Shown here: positions 3,039 through 9,206 of the stretch, one piece after another
Layout: each line of letters starts with the position of its first letter
Position numbering within the stretch: the first letter of the stretch is position 1
IMG/VR virus record: IMGVR_UViG_3300036399_001267
Origin: an uncultured virus (IMG/VR IMGVR_UViG_3300036399_001267)
Taxonomy: Duplodnaviria > Heunggongvirae > Uroviricota > Caudoviricetes
Strand: one strand, 5' to 3'
Length of the DNA stretch: 64,000 bases
Program-made: the position numbers and the translations under genes
Notes under the pieces: generated by a model
The model's database searches: none
The model's input: the letters and a program-made list of their open reading frames with translations, nothing else
What the model was told of the DNA's origin: nothing

Positions 3039-3749
3039 ATGAAGAAAGTATTAGTATTATTGTCAGTATTGGCCGCTCTAGCAGTATCAGCTGGCGACAA
3101 CTCAAACCTCTCAGTAGAAGCTGGGTACAACAACCAATACATCGTAAATGGTGTAGCTCGTTCCGAGGGATCAGCATTTGTTGGTGTAGGTGCTGTAAAG
3201 AGTTTAAAGTATGCGGATGTATACTTGGGTGGTACTCTATTGGCTAATGGTGATCAAGATCAATCACACTGGACGTTGGGTGCTGGTAAGGAAGTTAGTG
3301 TATGGAAGGATGTATTTTCTGCCCGTGCTGACGCTACTGTAACTCGCCATCAAGCTGGTAGTTTTGGTATTCCAAACAGTACTGAATTTGGTGTTAAGTT
3401 GGCTCTACCAAACAAGTTGGCAACTCCATATGTACGTGGTGCATTTGACATTGACCTAGACCAAAAGGGTGCATTCGTTGGTTTGGAACGTGCTCAAAAG
3501 TTGCCATTTGGTTTTGTAATTACTCCCGCTGTTGAATACGGTAAGGTATTTGGCGTATCGAGTGATTATACAGCTGTAAATGCTAAGGCATCATTGACTC
3601 GTCCATTCGAAACTTCATTTGGTGTATTGACTCCATTTGCTACTGTTGGATGGTATGATAATAATTTCAAGGTTGGCAATTATAATTGGGCAACCCGTGA
3701 ATTTAGTGGAGATGTAGTATATTCTGGTGGTTTGAGATTAACCTTCTAA
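3039..3749 (+). CDS. Outer-membrane beta-barrel protein (porin-like, possibly TorF-like)
   Basis: Signal peptide MKKVLVLLSVLAALAVSA, amphipathic beta strands, C-terminal beta-signal GLRLTF, SD-like aaggatag. Confidence 0.8.
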   Translation: MKKVLVLLSVLAALAVSAGDNSNLSVEAGYNNQYIVNGVARSEGSAFVGVGAVKSLKYADVYLGGTLLANGDQDQSHWTLGAGKEVSVWKDVFSARADATVTRHQAGSFGIPNSTEFGVKLALPNKLATPYVRGAFDIDLDQKGAFVGLERAQKLPFGFVITPAVEYGKVFGVSSDYTAVNAKASLTRPFETSFGVLTPFATVGWYDNNFKVGNYNWATREFSGDVVYSGGLRLTF

Positions 3750-3773
3750 TCTAAACCAGAATAGTGTATGATG

Positions 3774-3801
3774 ACCCGCTTAGAAATAAGCGGGTTTTTT
3801 T
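3774..3801 (+). terminator. Intrinsic terminator
   Basis: acccgctta-gaaa-taagcgggt followed by a T tract. Confidence 0.85.
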
Positions 3802-3840
3802 ATTTTAATAGTCTATTTATAATTAAAGAAAGGTTTATTT

Positions 3841-4794: not shown

Positions 4795-4834
4795 AAGTTA
4801 ATGAAGTTTATTTGAAAATTATTTAATAATTTTG

Positions 4835-4863
4835 TTGATTTTGAATTTCAAACACTATATATT
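4835..4863 (+). promoter_or_regulatory. Candidate sigma70-type promoter for the leader ORF
   Basis: TTGATT-N17-TATATT, ending 9 nt before ATG 4873. Confidence 0.5.
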
Positions 4864-4872
4864 ATTACGAAT

Positions 4873-4926
4873 ATGAATTTAATTTCACAACCTAGTCAAG
4901 CCAGTCAACTCCCATCCGGAAGTTGA
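4873..4926 (+). CDS. Putative attenuator leader peptide MNLISQPSQASQLPSGS
   Basis: 17-codon ORF overlapping alternative hairpins, upstream of a terminator and the tRNA array. Confidence 0.5.
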   Translation: MNLISQPSQASQLPSGS

Positions 4927-4953
4927 GTGAGAGGTTGTTTGCTATAAAGATCC

Positions 4954-4990
4954 AACCCGTCACTCTACGAAAAAAGAATGACGGGTTTTT
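4954..4990 (+). terminator. Intrinsic terminator (candidate attenuator 3:4 hairpin)
   Basis: aacccgtca...tgacgggtt followed by a T tract. Confidence 0.8.
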
Positions 4991-5001
4991 GATTTTAGTG
5001 G

Positions 5002-5029
5002 TTGACAATTTGAGAAGGTATGGTAAATT
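5002..5029 (+). promoter_or_regulatory. Sigma70-type promoter upstream of the tRNA array
   Basis: TTGACA-N16-TAAATT with an extended -10 TG. Confidence 0.6.
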
Positions 5030-5169
5030 AGAAATATAACGAACGGGGTTGAAACTCTATCTGATGTCCCCAACGAAAGTTAAAACATTTGATCGGTCAC
5101 TGGGTGTTATGCTGAAATACAGAACCCAACTGGCGATAATTAAAATAAGTTAAATAACAATTTTTAAAT

Positions 5170-5244
5170 GGGCGGTTAGCTCAGTGGAAGAGCAGGACCT
5201 TTACACGGTCAAGGCCAGAGGTTCAAATCCTTTACCGCCTACCA
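5170..5244 (+). tRNA. tRNA-Val(TAC)
   Basis: Anticodon arm gacc-ttTACac-ggtc, T loop ttcaaat, CCA. Confidence 0.92.
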
Positions 5245-5251
5245 TTTTAAT

Positions 5252-5325
5252 CGGTCACAAGTGTTACGGTAGCATACGTGCTTTGGGAGCATGGGGAGAC
5301 AGTTCAATTCTGTCGTGGCCGACCA
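5252..5325 (+). tRNA. tRNA-Pro(TGG)
   Basis: Acceptor cggtcac/gtggccg, anticodon arm cgtgc-ttTGGga-gcatg, CCA. Confidence 0.88.
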
Positions 5326-5332
5326 TTTTATT

Positions 5333-5417
5333 GGGCATATGATGTAATTGGCAGCCATGCGAGTCTTAGAAGCTCGTGGAGAAATCCGTGGGGGTTCAAG
5401 TCCCTCTATGCCCACCA
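5333..5417 (+). tRNA. tRNA-Leu(TAG)
   Basis: Anticodon arm cgagt-ctTAGaa-gctcg, long variable arm, CCA. Confidence 0.92.
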
Positions 5418-5425
5418 ATTTAAAT

Positions 5426-5503
5426 GGTTACGTAGACCAACTGGAAGGAGTCGTCTATCTCAAAAATAGAATAGTGCTGGTTCGAATCCAGTCGTAACTA
5501 CCA
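5426..5503 (+). tRNA. tRNA-Leu(CAA) with short variable loop
   Basis: Anticodon arm tctat-ctCAAaa-ataga, 5-nt variable loop, T loop ttcgaat, CCA. Confidence 0.85.
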
Positions 5504-5511
5504 ATTTCAAT

Positions 5512-5596
5512 GGGTGTGTGGATGAGGGAAACTGGCACAACCGCAATACTTAAGATATTGTATCCTATGTAGGTTCGAATCCTACCACACCTACCA
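5512..5596 (+). tRNA. tRNA-Leu(TAA)
   Basis: Anticodon arm caata-ctTAAga-tattg, T arm gtagg-ttcgaat-cctac, enlarged D region, CCA. Confidence 0.85.
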
Positions 5597-5605
5597 ATTT
5601 TATAT

Positions 5606-5698
5606 GGATGATAGGCAGATATAAGCTGGCTGCACTAGTCTTGAAAACTAGGTCCGTCTAAAAAACGGAGGTCCGGGCAGTACGGACATCATCCGCCA
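5606..5698 (+). tRNA. tRNA-Ser(TGA), atypical T loop GGCAGTA
   Basis: Anticodon arm ctagt-ctTGAaa-actag, long variable arm, G73, CCA. Confidence 0.88.
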
Positions 5699-5782
5699 TT
5701 TTAATACAACTCCACTTGACAATGGAACCGAAGACTGATAATATCGTCTCTTGAAGAAATCGGAGTTTGTCAAAAGATTTAT

Positions 5783-5875
5783 GGAGGTGACGTAGATAGT
5801 CAGGTTTCTACAGCAGTTTGCTAAACTGCCGTGGTCTAAAAGCCACTGAGGGGGCAGCACCCTTCGCCTCCGCCA
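5783..5875 (+). tRNA. tRNA-Ser(GCT), atypical T loop GGCAGCA
   Basis: Anticodon arm gcagt-ttGCTaa-actgc, long variable arm, G73, CCA. Confidence 0.88.
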
Positions 5876-5878
5876 TTT

Positions 5879-5952
5879 GCGGGTATAGCTTAGTGGTAAA
5901 GCGCCAGTCTTCCAAACTGGCAAGGTGAGTTCGATTCTCACTACCCGCTCCA
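5879..5952 (+). tRNA. tRNA-Gly(TCC)
   Basis: Acceptor gcgggta/tacccgc, anticodon arm ccagt-ctTCCaa-actgg, CCA. Confidence 0.93.
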
Positions 5953-5959
5953 ATTTAAC

Positions 5960-6033
5960 TGGGGATTTGCATAATGGTAGTGCGGCAGACTTTGAATCTG
6001 CTTGTGGTGGTTCGATTCCATCATCCCCAACCA
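5960..6033 (+). tRNA. tRNA-Gln(TTG)
   Basis: U1-A72 acceptor tggggat/atcccca, anticodon arm gcaga-ctTTGaa-tctgc, CCA. Confidence 0.92.
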
Positions 6034-6040
6034 ATTTAAT

Positions 6041-6116
6041 CGGAATGTAATGTCAATAGTAGACGGCCTGGTTTGGAGCTAGGAGGTTGCAGGTGCGAGT
6101 CCTGTCATTCCGACCA
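6041..6116 (+). tRNA. tRNA-Pro(TGG), second copy, with A37 and T loop TGCGAGT
   Basis: Acceptor cggaatg/cattccg, anticodon arm cctgg-ttTGGag-ctagg, CCA. Confidence 0.87.
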
Positions 6117-6123
6117 TTTTATA

Positions 6124-6239
6124 TATCAGACAACGGTAGAGGTTTGAACTTGGCTAGGTCCGAAACAATAACCAACGGCTGTGTTCGGCTAATAATCTGT
6201 GGGTTAAATATGCCCATAAAACCGCCAAGGTGTCTGGTA
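6124..6239 (+). ncRNA. Unassigned structured RNA at the end of the tRNA array
   Basis: Closing stem tatcagaca/tgtctggta, inner stem cttggc/gccaag and two internal hairpins. Confidence 0.5.
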
Positions 6240-6256
6240 ATTTTTTGTTTTTTGAT

Positions 6257-6285
6257 TTGACTTATACTATATATTGGTGTAAGAT
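6257..6285 (+). promoter_or_regulatory. Sigma70-type promoter before tRNA-Ala
   Basis: TTGACT-N17-TAAGAT. Confidence 0.55.
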
Positions 6286-6293
6286 TTTTAAAT

Positions 6294-6368
6294 GGGCTGT
6301 TAGTGATAGTGGTAGCACGGGAGCTTTGCAAGCTTTAGGGAAGAGTTCGATTCTCTTACGGTCCACCA
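6294..6368 (+). tRNA. tRNA-Ala(TGC)
   Basis: G3:U70 identity pair, anticodon loop ttTGCaa, CCA. Confidence 0.92.
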
Positions 6369-6420
6369 TTTTAAATTAATGTATGTTGGTTAGTTTCAAC
6401 TATATATTAATGTTGAGATC

Positions 6421-6494
6421 GCGGGTATGATGTAGTGGTAGCCTGCAACCTTGCCAAGGTCGATGTGCCGGTTCGATTCCGGCTACCCGCTCCA
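6421..6494 (+). tRNA. tRNA-Gly(GCC)
   Basis: Acceptor gcgggta/tacccgc, anticodon loop ttGCCaa, CCA. Confidence 0.92.
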
Positions 6495-7954: not shown

Positions 7955-8339
7955 GGGCGCGTACTGGTATCGATTTAATAGTACACGTATGTTAGGCACG
8001 TAGAGGATGATAGTTGGCCTCTTTAATACACCTATCGAAATATTAACTGCTGAAGATAACGTAGTTAGCTATGACTTCTCTTACGATGAAGTAGTAGCCC
8101 TTGCAGCCTAAGTTGTTGCACATTCAATACAATGAAGTCTGATATTTGTGTTGAGTGTAAATTATTGGACTGGACCAAATATTTGATTTGCGTAAATGGT
8201 CGAGATATTAGTAAATCTTAAGGGTAATATTTTTAGATATTTTTCATTATTACTCCCTAACAATTTAAAATATATAAGCGTGTAGTCTGATGTAGGTTAT
8301 CTGTTAAACACGGCGGTTCAACTCCGCCCGCGTCCACCA
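7955..8339 (+). ncRNA. ssrA: tmRNA; tag reading frame 8049-8111 encodes AEDNVVSYDFSYDEVVALAA
   Basis: 5' gggcgcg pairs with 3' cgcgtcc-ACCA including G3:U, T arm ggcgg-ttcaact-ccgcc, internal tag ending LAA-stop. Confidence 0.93.
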
Positions 8340-9178: not shown

Positions 9179-9206
9179 AAAACCCGGTCTTTCGACCGGG
9201 TTTTTT
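9179..9206. terminator. Bidirectional intrinsic terminator
   Basis: aaaacccggtc-tttc-gaccgggtttttt between convergent genes. Confidence 0.85.

What the first reader, a model, noticed from the sequence alone, without database searches (positions are those of the whole stretch)
4835..4990. Candidate translation-coupled attenuator controlling the phage tRNA array, with leader codons matching the downstream tRNAs
Seen: a promoter-like element, then a 17-codon ORF (ATG AAT TTA ATT TCA CAA CCT AGT CAA GCC AGT CAA CTC CCA TCC GGA AGT TGA) and three alternative pairings. 1:2 is acaacct 4887-4893/aggttgt 4932-4938 plus tcaact 4905-4910/agttga 4921-4926. 2:3 (antiterminator) is gagtga 4925-4930/tcactc 4960-4965 plus ggttg 4933-4937/caacc 4953-4957. 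3:4 (terminator) is aacccgtca 4954-4962/tgacgggtt 4979-4987 with a U tract. Ten of 16 non-Met codons (TTA, TCA, 3x CAA, 3x AGT, CCA, GGA) are read by tRNAs of the array that follows (Leu-TAA, Ser-TGA, Gln-TTG, Ser-GCT, Pro-TGG, Gly-TCC). Established: this is the architecture of trp/his-type attenuators. Inference: ribosome stalling from tRNA shortage, for example after host anticodon-nuclease attack, would free segment 2, block termination and switch on replacement tRNAs. I know of no description of such a sensor for a phage tRNA operon. Caveat: a second promoter-like site at 5002-5029 lies downstream of the terminator and could supply basal expression.
Basis: partly seen in the sequence, partly recalled or inferred. 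Interest (0 to 1): 0.85.

Follow-up and report, generated by a model that had tools for sequence, protein, structure and literature searches.

The report
Leader-peptide switch before phage tRNA genes
An uncultured giant phage puts a tiny 17-codon gene in front of a tRNA gene cluster; it is wired to a stop/go RNA hairpin switch and spelled in the amino acids of the tRNAs behind it, so it probably lets the phage transcribe more tRNA when ribosomes run short of it.

Summary
Window 4835-4998 holds a conserved promoter-like site, a 17-codon ORF (4873-4926), the three listed pairings and a terminator.

Points in favour of the attenuator reading:
- The module recurs in 20 distinct relatives behind different upstream genes, and 19 of 20 keep the ORF.
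- A diverged 24-codon version, and a paralogous 27-codon module 3.2 kb upstream of the window before the phage's other tRNA array, have the same 1:2 / 2:3 / 3:4 layout built from different sequences.
- Each leader is spelled in the amino acids of its own array. sORF1 matches 14 of 16 against {V,P,L,S,G,Q,A}. sORF2 contains all 10 amino-acid types of its array.
- The codon-level cross table is [[10,2],[4,17]], Fisher p = 6e-4.

Points against or untested:
- A near-consensus promoter (5002-5029) sits after the terminator in every copy.
- Translation and read-through are untested.
- At equilibrium the terminator still wins, so any switch must be kinetic.
- The window's two Ser "tRNAs" are non-canonical.

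Best reading, at about 0.55: a ribosome-mediated attenuator that senses decoding of the codons its array serves.

Five literature searches found no published description. Earlier notes of this scan reached the same reading on relatives and on other phages.

The parts
4835..4863 (+). P1, a sigma-70-like promoter site: TTGATT, 17 nt, TATATT (core TATATATT). It would start the RNA 2-3 nt before the ATG, giving a near-leaderless mRNA.
   Evidence: 9 of 12 matches; conserved; TATATATT followed by ATG after 5-9 nt in all listed variants of both modules.
4873..4926 (+). sORF1, the leader ORF: MNLISQPSQASQLPSGS*, 17 codons plus TGA. It has no Shine-Dalgarno motif.
   Evidence: 19 of 20 distinct relatives keep a 17-codon ATG...TGA frame; 5 distinct peptides. 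51 of 57 long ORFs of this phage also lack an SD-like motif.
4887..4938 (+). Hairpin 1:2. Lower helix 4887-4893/4932-4938; upper helix 4905-4910/4921-4926 plus 4912-4913/4918-4919.
   Evidence: 96-99% of cells are paired over 20 sequences, with one compensatory C-G to U-A change.
4925..4965 (+). Alternative 2:3 pairing (antiterminator): 4925-4930 with 4960-4965 and 4933-4937 with 4953-4957. It overlaps the stop codon and the 5' arm of the terminator.
   Evidence: When segments 2-3 are folded alone, all 20 relatives give -11.1 to -15.8 kcal/mol, with register shifts. The observed hexamers rank in the top 2-19% of all 4096 for 2:3 stability but are unremarkable for 1:2. The fixed-register count is not supportive.
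4954..4998 (+). Intrinsic terminator 3:4: stem 4954-4962/4979-4987, inner pairs 4964-4966/4975-4977, then the U tract UUUUUGAUUUU.
   Evidence: 97% paired; -15.9 kcal/mol.
5002..5029 (+). P2, a near-consensus sigma-70-like promoter with an extended -10 (TTGACA, 16 nt, TG-n-TAAATT), lying downstream of the terminator.
   Evidence: 10 of 12 matches. It is kept in every relative that reaches it and in both other module versions.
5045..5137 (+). Conserved leader element between P2 and the first tRNA. It has a GGGG/CCCC hairpin with an invariant loop UUGAAACUCUAUCUG (5045-5071) and a second block (5091-5137). Function unknown.
   Evidence: Nearly invariant; second copy before the other array; no Rfam match; the single-sequence fold is not significant.
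5170..6494 (+). tRNA array 2: Val-TAC, Pro-TGG, Leu-TAG, Leu-CAA, Leu-TAA, a Ser-TGA-like RNA, an internal promoter at 5716-5744, a Ser-GCT-like RNA, Gly-TCC, Gln-TTG, a Pro-TGG-like RNA (6041-6113), Ala-TGC, Gly-GCC.

Best explanation
The element is a ribosome-mediated (leader-peptide) transcription attenuator placed in front of a phage tRNA array.

Proposed mechanism:
1. RNA starting at P1, or arriving from the gene upstream, begins almost directly with the AUG of a 17-codon leader.
2. If no ribosome is present, or the ribosome runs to the UGA and covers segment 2, then hairpin 1:2 or the ribosome leaves segment 3 free. Terminator 3:4 forms and the RNA ends at about 4990-4996.
3. If the ribosome is slow on the middle codons (AGU CAA GCC AGU CAA), segment 1 is covered and segment 2 is free. 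Segment 2 then pairs with the 5' arm of the terminator before segment 4 is made, and the polymerase runs on into the array.
4. The leader is spelled in the amino acids whose tRNAs lie downstream, so read-through would rise when exactly those decoders are short. That makes a feedback loop on top of the basal promoter P2.

Shown here: the anatomy, its conservation, the three competing pairings in three sequence-diverged versions, and the match between each leader and its array.

Inferred: that the leader is translated, that stalling occurs, that read-through follows, and that the extra transcription matters beside P2.
For: 1. Own unit. The module stands behind at least three unrelated upstream genes in relatives, so it is not the upstream gene's 3' end.

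2. ORF kept. 19 of 20 distinct leaders keep a 17-codon ATG...TGA frame. A diverged group (3 distinct sequences) has a 24-codon frame, MN(I/L)..S.Q..A..QPSPS.LPSA(S/C)*. The other five reading frames of the window stretch hold stops.

3. Paralogous module at genome C1:16261-16456, 3.2 kb before the window. It has TATATATT, an ATG 6 nt later, the 27-codon sORF2 MRVHYTNIKRWNTFTNCEDRGMAADIV*, a terminator, then a TTGACG...TGTGGTAAAGT promoter and the other tRNA array. It is kept in 4 further genomes at 71-97% identity with a 25-27-codon frame.

4. Same switch from different sequences.
- 2:3 folds at -11.1 to -15.8 kcal/mol in 20 of 20 module-1 leaders.
- In the diverged group it folds at -13.1 to -16.5 kcal/mol.
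- In 5 of 5 module-2 leaders it folds at -18.8 to -23.0 kcal/mol, z = -3.6 to -5.6.
- Module 2's 1:2 plus 3:4 structure has 5 pairs with compensatory changes, reached by 5 of 500 shuffles.

5. Geometry. In all three versions the stop codon lies in, or within about 7 nt before, segment 2, or segment 2 lies inside the last codons.

6. Leader matches its own array.
- sORF1 has 14 of 16 residues in {V,P,L,S,G,Q,A}. Random windows of phage proteins reach this in 975 of 400000 draws; stop-free nucleotide shuffles reach it in 1 of 30000.
- The diverged leaders score 20-21 of 23 with all 7 amino-acid types: 4 and 0 of 400000. Their arrays hold Val, Pro, Leu, Ser, Ala, Gly and Gln.
- sORF2 holds all 10 amino-acid types of its array: 2321 of 400000. 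It uses 11 of that array's 14 tRNAs: 97 of 21072 windows.
- Codon cross table [[10,2],[4,17]], Fisher p = 6.4e-4.

7. Specificity. In the complete 295,831-bp relative, the combination of sORF, terminator and TTGAC occurs at 3 places among 78 terminators. Two of the three are the tRNA-array modules.

8. Sensing window. The codons where a masked ribosome lowers terminator probability are 8-12 in module 1, 6-13 in module 2 and mainly 3-13 in the diverged leader, which also dips at codons 16, 21 and 22. Within those three main ranges every codon is in-set (read against the sets above).
Against: 1. P2, a better promoter match than P1, lies after the terminator in every version. Further promoter-like sites lie inside the array at 5716-5744 and 6257-6285. 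The array does not depend on read-through.

2. No expression data exist.

3. Module 1 varies little. There is only 1 compensatory pair, and the shuffles do as well.

4. In an equilibrium model with a masked ribosome footprint, terminator probability falls only to 0.77 (module 1), 0.59 (module 2) and 0.36 (diverged leader). The switch would have to be kinetic.

5. One lineage (L007/L008) has a 67-codon ORF of ordinary composition ending in the same tail.

6. Codon-level enrichment is modest taken singly: 596 of 21642 and 602 of 21072 windows. sORF1 is low-complexity, so its codons are not independent. The amino-acid sets were defined after seeing the data.

7. The window's Ser-TGA and Ser-GCT genes are non-canonical and may not decode.

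8. The N-terminal 18 residues of sORF2 are well conserved, which would also fit a working peptide.

9. The third tRNA cluster of the complete relative has no such module.
Confidence: 0.55

Rival explanations
1. The module is a self-contained tiny gene or small RNA. P1 makes an RNA of about 120 nt that ends at its own terminator. The RNA encodes a 17-aa (or, in module 2, 25-27-aa) peptide, or acts as an sRNA, whose job is unrelated to read-through. The competing pairing would be a by-product of two similar hairpins.
For: The module has its own promoter-like site and its own strong terminator, and the MFE is two hairpins. The sORF2 peptide is well conserved, with several synonymous changes. Attenuator-derived RNAs and leader peptides with trans functions are known (rnTrpL and peTrpL; abstracts of PMC6614838 and PMC7968998 seen). 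At equilibrium the terminator wins.
Against: This reading does not explain several findings:
- Two compositionally opposite peptides each match the tRNA set behind them.
- Replacements between diverged leaders stay inside the set.
- Segment 2 keeps complementarity to the terminator arm through register shifts in three unrelated sequence versions.
- Both modules sit exactly before tRNA arrays.
Confidence: 0.2
2. The module is an insulator. The terminator shields the array's own promoter P2 from transcription coming from the structural gene upstream, and the short ORF is a tolerated or remnant frame, as the 67-codon version in L007/L008 might suggest.
For: P2 follows the terminator within 15 nt in every version. 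No terminator lies between the upstream gene's stop (4794) and the leader. One lineage has a longer ORF with the same tail.
Against: A conserved promoter-like site (P1) directly in front of an insulator is hard to explain. The frame, start and stop are kept in 19 of 20 leaders and again in diverged and paralogous versions. The N-terminal part of the long ORF has a weak homologue elsewhere in a relative's genome, which points to a secondary fusion. The composition match is left unexplained.
Confidence: 0.15
3. The finding is chance: an AT-rich intergenic stretch that happens to hold an ORF, plus an ordinary terminator.
For: Promoter-like sites are common here (60 found against 44.7 expected). 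Short ORFs are frequent.
Against: The fold has z = -4.9. The module is conserved behind different genes. A paralogous module and a diverged version share the layout. Composition tests give 1 of 30000 and 193 of 400000.
Confidence: 0.05

Closest known systems
Leader-peptide transcription attenuators of enterobacterial amino-acid operons (trpL, hisL, leuL, pheL; the multivalent thr and ilvGMEDA leaders). Named from my own knowledge; general description in the abstract of PMC1183508.
   Same: A short ORF in the leader; mutually exclusive 1:2, 2:3 and 3:4 pairings; an intrinsic terminator; a stop codon placed so that a terminating ribosome covers segment 2; and leader codons that correspond to what the downstream genes supply.
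   Different: The downstream genes are tRNAs, not biosynthetic enzymes. The leader samples 6-12 different amino acids once or a few times each, rather than runs of one. The mRNA is near-leaderless with no Shine-Dalgarno motif. A strong promoter sits between the terminator and the regulated genes. The element is viral.
T-box riboswitches (tRNA-sensing leaders of aminoacyl-tRNA synthetase and amino-acid genes in Gram-positive bacteria)
   Same: They report on the tRNA pool through a terminator/antiterminator choice.
   Different: T-boxes bind an uncharged tRNA directly and need no translation. No T-box or other Rfam family matches 4800-5170 at E <= 1, and here an ORF spans the sensing part.
Tandem P1-P2 promoters of E. 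coli rRNA-tRNA operons (abstract of PMC5179076)
   Same: Two promoters in a row feed stable-RNA genes, one of which can be regulated while the other is basal.
   Different: Here a translated leader and a terminator lie between the two promoters.
Attenuator-derived sRNA rnTrpL and leader peptide peTrpL of Sinorhizobium meliloti (abstracts of PMC6614838 and PMC7968998)
   Same: A terminated leader transcript and its peptide can be products in their own right.
   Different: No target or trans function is known or predicted here.

Membership tests
Leader-peptide (ribosome-mediated) transcription attenuator | A short ORF within the leader, upstream of and overlapping the switch | tested here: met
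   The 17-codon ORF at 4873-4926 overlaps segments 1 and 2. It is kept in 19 of 20 relatives.
Leader-peptide (ribosome-mediated) transcription attenuator | Mutually exclusive pairings 1:2, 2:3 and 3:4, with 3:4 an intrinsic terminator | tested here: met
   The fixed-register covariation test for 2:3 was not supportive. Module 2 shows compensatory changes for 1:2 and 3:4.
Leader-peptide (ribosome-mediated) transcription attenuator | Regulatory codons cognate to what the controlled genes supply | tested here: met
   Each leader matches its own array at the amino-acid and codon level. The caveat is the two non-canonical Ser genes.
Leader-peptide (ribosome-mediated) transcription attenuator | The stop codon is placed so that a terminating ribosome masks segment 2 | tested here: met
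   The UGA at 4924-4926 overlaps segment 2 (4925-4938). The same logic holds in module 2 and in the diverged leader.
Leader-peptide (ribosome-mediated) transcription attenuator | The leader is translated, and stalling changes read-through | not testable with these tools
The equilibrium model gives only a partial shift.
Leader-peptide (ribosome-mediated) transcription attenuator | The terminator lies between the only promoter and the controlled genes | tested here: not met
   P2 at 5002-5029 lies after the terminator in all versions.
T-box riboswitch | Specifier loop, T-box sequence and stem I architecture (Rfam model) | tested here: not met
   No Rfam match in 4800-5170 at E <= 1.

The most novel reading that the evidence does not exclude
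Giant phages carry 'codon-sampling' leader peptides that test whether the cell can still decode a given set of codons. Each leader is wired by a terminator/antiterminator switch to the tRNA array that supplies exactly that set.

In this phage two such sensors split the amino acids between them. One covers {V,P,L,S,G,Q,A}. The other covers {T,R,E,W,N,Y,K,D,I,C}, plus H and F in relatives.

The phage would thus detect loss of tRNAs, whether from host anticodon nucleases, host shut-off or starvation, and answer with the matching replacement tRNAs.
Probability: 0.4. Interest if true: 0.9.

Novelty: new variant of a known kind. Interest (0 to 1): 0.75.

Why it matters
Phage tRNA genes are usually discussed as a fixed supplement to codon usage, or as spare parts against host tRNA nucleases. 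How their expression is controlled is essentially unknown.

A translated sensor that reads out decoding capacity and gates the matching tRNA genes would be a new use of the classic attenuation mechanism. It would be the first regulatory logic tied to tRNA supply in a virus.

It would also be a compact natural part for reporting the state of a defined set of tRNAs. The idea is directly testable in a cell-free coupled system with defined tRNA pools.

Tried and rejected
1. 'It is only the terminator of the 317-aa gene upstream.' Rejected: the module follows at least three unrelated genes in relatives.

2. 'No Shine-Dalgarno motif, so it is not translated.' Rejected as an argument:
- 51 of 57 long ORFs of this phage lack an SD-like motif.
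- 27-29% of long ORFs have a TATAWW motif 3-16 nt before the ATG, against 6-7% of random windows.

3. Not supportive. It was replaced by free folding of segments 2-3 and a test over all 4096 hexamers.

4. 'GC content explains the amino-acid match.' Rejected for sORF1: stop-free shuffles of the same nucleotides reach 14 of 16 in 1 of 30000 draws. It is only weakened for sORF2, at 305 of 30000.

5. 'The 17 codons are the stump of the 67-codon gene seen in L007/L008.' Judged less likely. This form occurs in 1 of 20 leaders, and its N-terminal part has a weak homologue elsewhere in a relative, E = 1e-4. It is not excluded.

6. Rfam: no family for the leader or for the conserved element after P2.

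7. Cultured relatives: no match in the phage collection, neither near nor distant apart from tRNA-Val.

8. One unrelated jumbo phage, Xanthomonas phage Xoo-sp13. In the 24 kb around its tRNAs, two terminators lie within 400 nt upstream of a tRNA and one of them has a 16-codon ORF next to it, but I saw no module of this kind. This is one case and I did not examine that site further, so it says nothing general.

10. The equilibrium ribosome-mask model gives only a partial switch.

They were rerun in faster form.

Full report
**What the window is.** The window is bases 19500-83499 of a 91,193-base IMG/VR virus record that CheckV rates 31% complete. The record has 34% G+C. It encodes a tail sheath, a baseplate wedge, a portal and a large terminase. 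A relative with the same modules is a complete record of 295,831 bases. The element therefore belongs to an uncultured jumbo myovirus. No cultured relative was found in the phage collection, neither by megablast nor by blastn apart from tRNA-Val.

**The observation.**
- The ORF runs from 4873 to 4926 with 17 sense codons.
- TTGATT-17-TATATT lies at 4835-4863.
- All listed base pairs are Watson-Crick.
- The minimum-energy fold of 4865-4998 is hairpin 1:2 plus the terminator, at -38.8 kcal/mol, z = -4.9, with 0 of 200 shuffles as stable.
- The second promoter-like site at 5002-5029 is the better match: TTGACA, 16 nt, TG-n-TAAATT.

It is partly beyond what the programs see.
- ARAGORN finds eight tRNAs in the array, and Rfam finds two more.
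- Leu-TAA appears only with relaxed settings.
- Ser-TGA (5606-5698) and Ser-GCT (5783-5875) are tRNA-shaped RNAs with the right anticodon loops but rebuilt T arms. I could only read them by eye.
- Relatives carry canonical Ser-TGA and Ser-GCT in their arrays.

**Relatives.**
- A protein-anchored scan gave 9 loci.
- A 16-mer of the leader matched 54 stretches. Of these, 24 resemble the leader region and 30 do not, so the 30 are chance matches.
- A 21-mer of the element after P2 gave 29 stretches.
- After removing duplicates I aligned 20 distinct leaders. Left out were three truncated contigs (L067, L079, L094), one duplicate (L046) and five loci of a diverged type that I analysed separately.
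- The module stands behind at least three unrelated upstream genes, so it is a unit of its own.
- 19 of 20 leaders keep a 17-codon ATG...TGA frame, with five distinct peptides.
- One lineage (L007/L008) instead has a 67-codon ORF with the same tail. Its N-terminal part has a weak homologue elsewhere in a relative's genome.

**The pairings in module 1.**
- Hairpin 1:2 and the terminator are 96-99% paired over the 20 sequences. They hardly vary, though: there is one compensatory pair, and shuffled controls do as well.
- When segments 2 and 3 are folded alone, every one of the 20 sequences still pairs segment 2 with the 5' arm of the terminator, at -11.1 to -15.8 kcal/mol and in shifted registers.
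- I replaced the variable hexamer after the stop codon by each of the 4096 possible hexamers. The ten observed hexamers rank in the top 2-19% for 2:3 stability but are unremarkable for 1:2. They are related by descent, so this is suggestive rather than a probability.

**Two further versions of the module.**

The first is a diverged group (five loci, three distinct sequences). It has TATATATT (or TATGTATT in L080 and L093), an ATG 6 nt later, and a 24-codon ORF such as MNLLSVQSVVASGQPSPSALPSAC*. A different terminator follows (ACCGUUGGUC/GAUCAACGGU), then a TTGACA promoter and a Val-Val-Pro-Leu-Ser-Ser-Ala-Gly-Gln-Ala-Gly array. There the segment GACUAACGGU, just after the stop codon, can pair with the terminator's 5' arm at -13.1 to -16.5 kcal/mol.

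The second lies 3.2 kb before the window, at C1:16261-16456 of the same genome. The other tRNA array is preceded there by a paralogous module:
- TATATATT with an ATG 6 nt later;
- the 27-codon sORF2, MRVHYTNIKRWNTFTNCEDRGMAADIV*;
- a long hairpin within the ORF;
- a terminator (AACCGUCAC/GUGACGGUU plus seven U);
- a TTGACG...TGTGGTAAAGT promoter.

Four other genomes keep this module at 71-97% identity with 25-27-codon frames. Its 1:2 plus 3:4 structure has five pairs with compensatory changes, reached by 5 of 500 shuffles. The end of the ORF (GGCGGCUGAUAUUG) pairs with the terminator arm (CAAUAUCAACCGUC) at -18.8 to -23.0 kcal/mol in 5 of 5 variants, z = -3.6 to -5.6. The fixed-register count for this 2:3 is again indistinct from shuffles.

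In all three versions a ribosome standing at the stop codon would cover segment 2.

**Leader composition against array content.** Array 2, behind the window's leader, carries tRNAs for V, P, L, S, G, Q and A. Array 1, behind sORF2, carries tRNAs for T, R, E, W, N, Y, K, D, I and C. Relatives add His, Phe and Lys-TTT to array 1.

| Test | Result | Call |
|---|---|---|
| sORF1 residues in the array-2 set | 14 of 16 | 51 |
| sORF1 residues in the array-1 set | 2 of 16 | read from the sets above |
| Random 16-residue windows from 270 phage ORFs reaching 14 | 975 of 400000 | 51 |
| The same windows reaching both the count and 6 of 7 types | 193 of 400000 | 51 |
| Stop-free shuffles of sORF1's own nucleotides reaching 14 | 1 of 30000 | 66 |
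| Diverged leaders: 20 and 21 of 23 with all seven types | 4 and 0 of 400000 | 51 |
| sORF2 containing all ten amino-acid types of its array | 2321 of 400000 | 51 |
| sORF2 using 11 of that array's 14 tRNAs | 97 of 21072 windows | 53 |
| sORF2 total in-set count, 18 of 26 (not unusual alone) | 34678 of 400000 | 51 |
| sORF2 under nucleotide shuffles (count and types together) | 305 of 30000 | 66 |
| sORF1 codons read by array 2 / by array 1 (ordinary wobble) | 10 / 2 | 53 |
| sORF2 codons read by array 2 / by array 1 (ordinary wobble) | 4 / 17 | 53 |
| Fisher test on that cross table | p = 6.4e-4 | 53 |
| Windows reaching 10 of 16 (array 2) | 596 of 21642 | 53 |
| Windows reaching 17 of 26 (array 1) | 602 of 21072 | 53 |

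Three cautions apply. The sets were defined after I had seen the data. sORF1 is repetitive. The two Ser genes of the window are non-canonical.

**Specificity.** In the complete relative I scanned both strands for a short ORF behind a TATA-like motif, followed by a terminator and then TTGAC within 45 nt. This combination occurs at 3 places among 78 terminators. Two of the three are the tRNA-array modules. The third tRNA cluster of that genome has no such module.

**Translation.** The leader has no Shine-Dalgarno motif, and the predicted start of the RNA is 0-3 nt before the AUG. This is not unusual for this phage. 51 of 57 long ORFs lack an SD-like motif. 27-29% of long ORFs have a TATAWW motif 3-16 nt before the ATG, against 6-7% of random windows.

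**Mechanism and its limits.** The anatomy fits the classical model:
- no ribosome, or a ribosome at the stop codon, gives termination;
- a ribosome held on the middle codons gives 2:3 pairing and read-through.

I masked a ribosome footprint at each codon and computed pair probabilities. The terminator weakens only for codons 8-12 in module 1, 6-13 in module 2 and mainly 3-13 in the diverged leader, which also dips at codons 16, 21 and 22. All codons in those three main ranges are in-set. The minimum terminator probabilities are only 0.77, 0.59 and 0.36. Any switch must therefore rest on the order of folding during transcription, as in the classical cases (that comparison is from my own knowledge). 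The conserved promoter P2 after the terminator, and further promoter-like sites inside the array, mean the element could at most add regulated transcription to a basal level. None of the steps beyond anatomy has been observed.

**Comparison with what is known.** It works like the leader-peptide attenuators of amino-acid operons. It meets their structural criteria and fails one: the terminator does not stand between the only promoter and the genes. It is not a T-box and matches no Rfam family.

Five full-text searches turned up no description of a leader-peptide attenuator for tRNA genes, in phages or in cells. A term search inside a jumbo-phage review (PMC7824862, passages only) found 0 occurrences of 'attenuat' or 'leader'. 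Subscription journals are not covered by these searches.

Earlier notes of this scan describe the same reading on close relatives of this phage and on other phages. I reached my reading before seeing them, and I count them as leads, not as evidence.

**Verdict.** It is a new variant of a known mechanism, with confidence of about 0.55 that it acts as a translation-coupled attenuator tied to tRNA supply.

Noticed in passing
window 7955-8339 (+): A phage-encoded tmRNA gene, scoring 113 bits in Rfam, with the ARAGORN tag peptide AEDNVVSYDFSYDEVVALAA*. Relatives carry it with different tags.
   Followed up: no
window 5045-5137; second copy at genome C1:16564-16688: A nearly invariant element of about 95 nt between P2 and the first tRNA of both arrays. 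It has a hairpin with the invariant loop UUGAAACUCYAUCUG; the stem changes from GGGG/CCCC to GGGC/GCCC in a diverged group. A second block follows, GAUYGGUC..GGGUGUUAUG..CAGAACCC..GGCGAU. It matches no Rfam family, and the single-sequence fold is not significant (z = 0.7). In L022, L056 and L065 a different leader of about 170 nt takes its place.
   Followed up: partly
window 5606-5698, 5783-5875, 6041-6113: tRNA-shaped genes with normal acceptor stems, a CCA end and anticodon loops (Ser-TGA, Ser-GCT, Pro-TGG), but with rebuilt T arms (GGGCAGTAC, GGGGGCAGCACCC). ARAGORN misses all three and Rfam misses the first two.
   Followed up: partly
genome C1:16919-16994 and C1:17730-17852 (before the window): ARAGORN calls a tRNA with an 8-nt anticodon loop (anticodon 'ctct'). 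Rfam and ARAGORN also call a tRNA-Asn(GTT) interrupted by a 51-nt insert in the anticodon loop.
   Followed up: no
window 5716-5744 and 6257-6285: Further sigma-70-like promoter sites lie inside the tRNA array: TTGACA-17-TAATAT with TG, and TTGACT-17-TAAGAT. The stretch 6114-6250 between tRNAs ends in a T run and may be another structured RNA.
   Followed up: no
L007:4019-4222 (also L008): In one lineage the leader frame is extended to 67 codons: MVIEKTYKLVIQGRSF...VSEPSQASQLPSES*. The first 27 residues resemble an ORF elsewhere in a complete relative at 56% identity, E = 1e-4.
   Followed up: partly
whole genome record: 51 of 57 ORFs of 150 aa or more lack a Shine-Dalgarno-like motif. A TATAWW motif ending 3-16 nt before the ATG is about four times enriched, which hints that short or absent 5' leaders are common in this phage.
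   Followed up: partly
window 3719-3803 and 9179-9204: A weak Rfam Trp_leader match (23.9 bits, below the gathering score of 41) overlaps the terminator after ORF 3039-3749 and is probably only terminator likeness. A perfect two-way terminator lies at 9179-9204.
   Followed up: no
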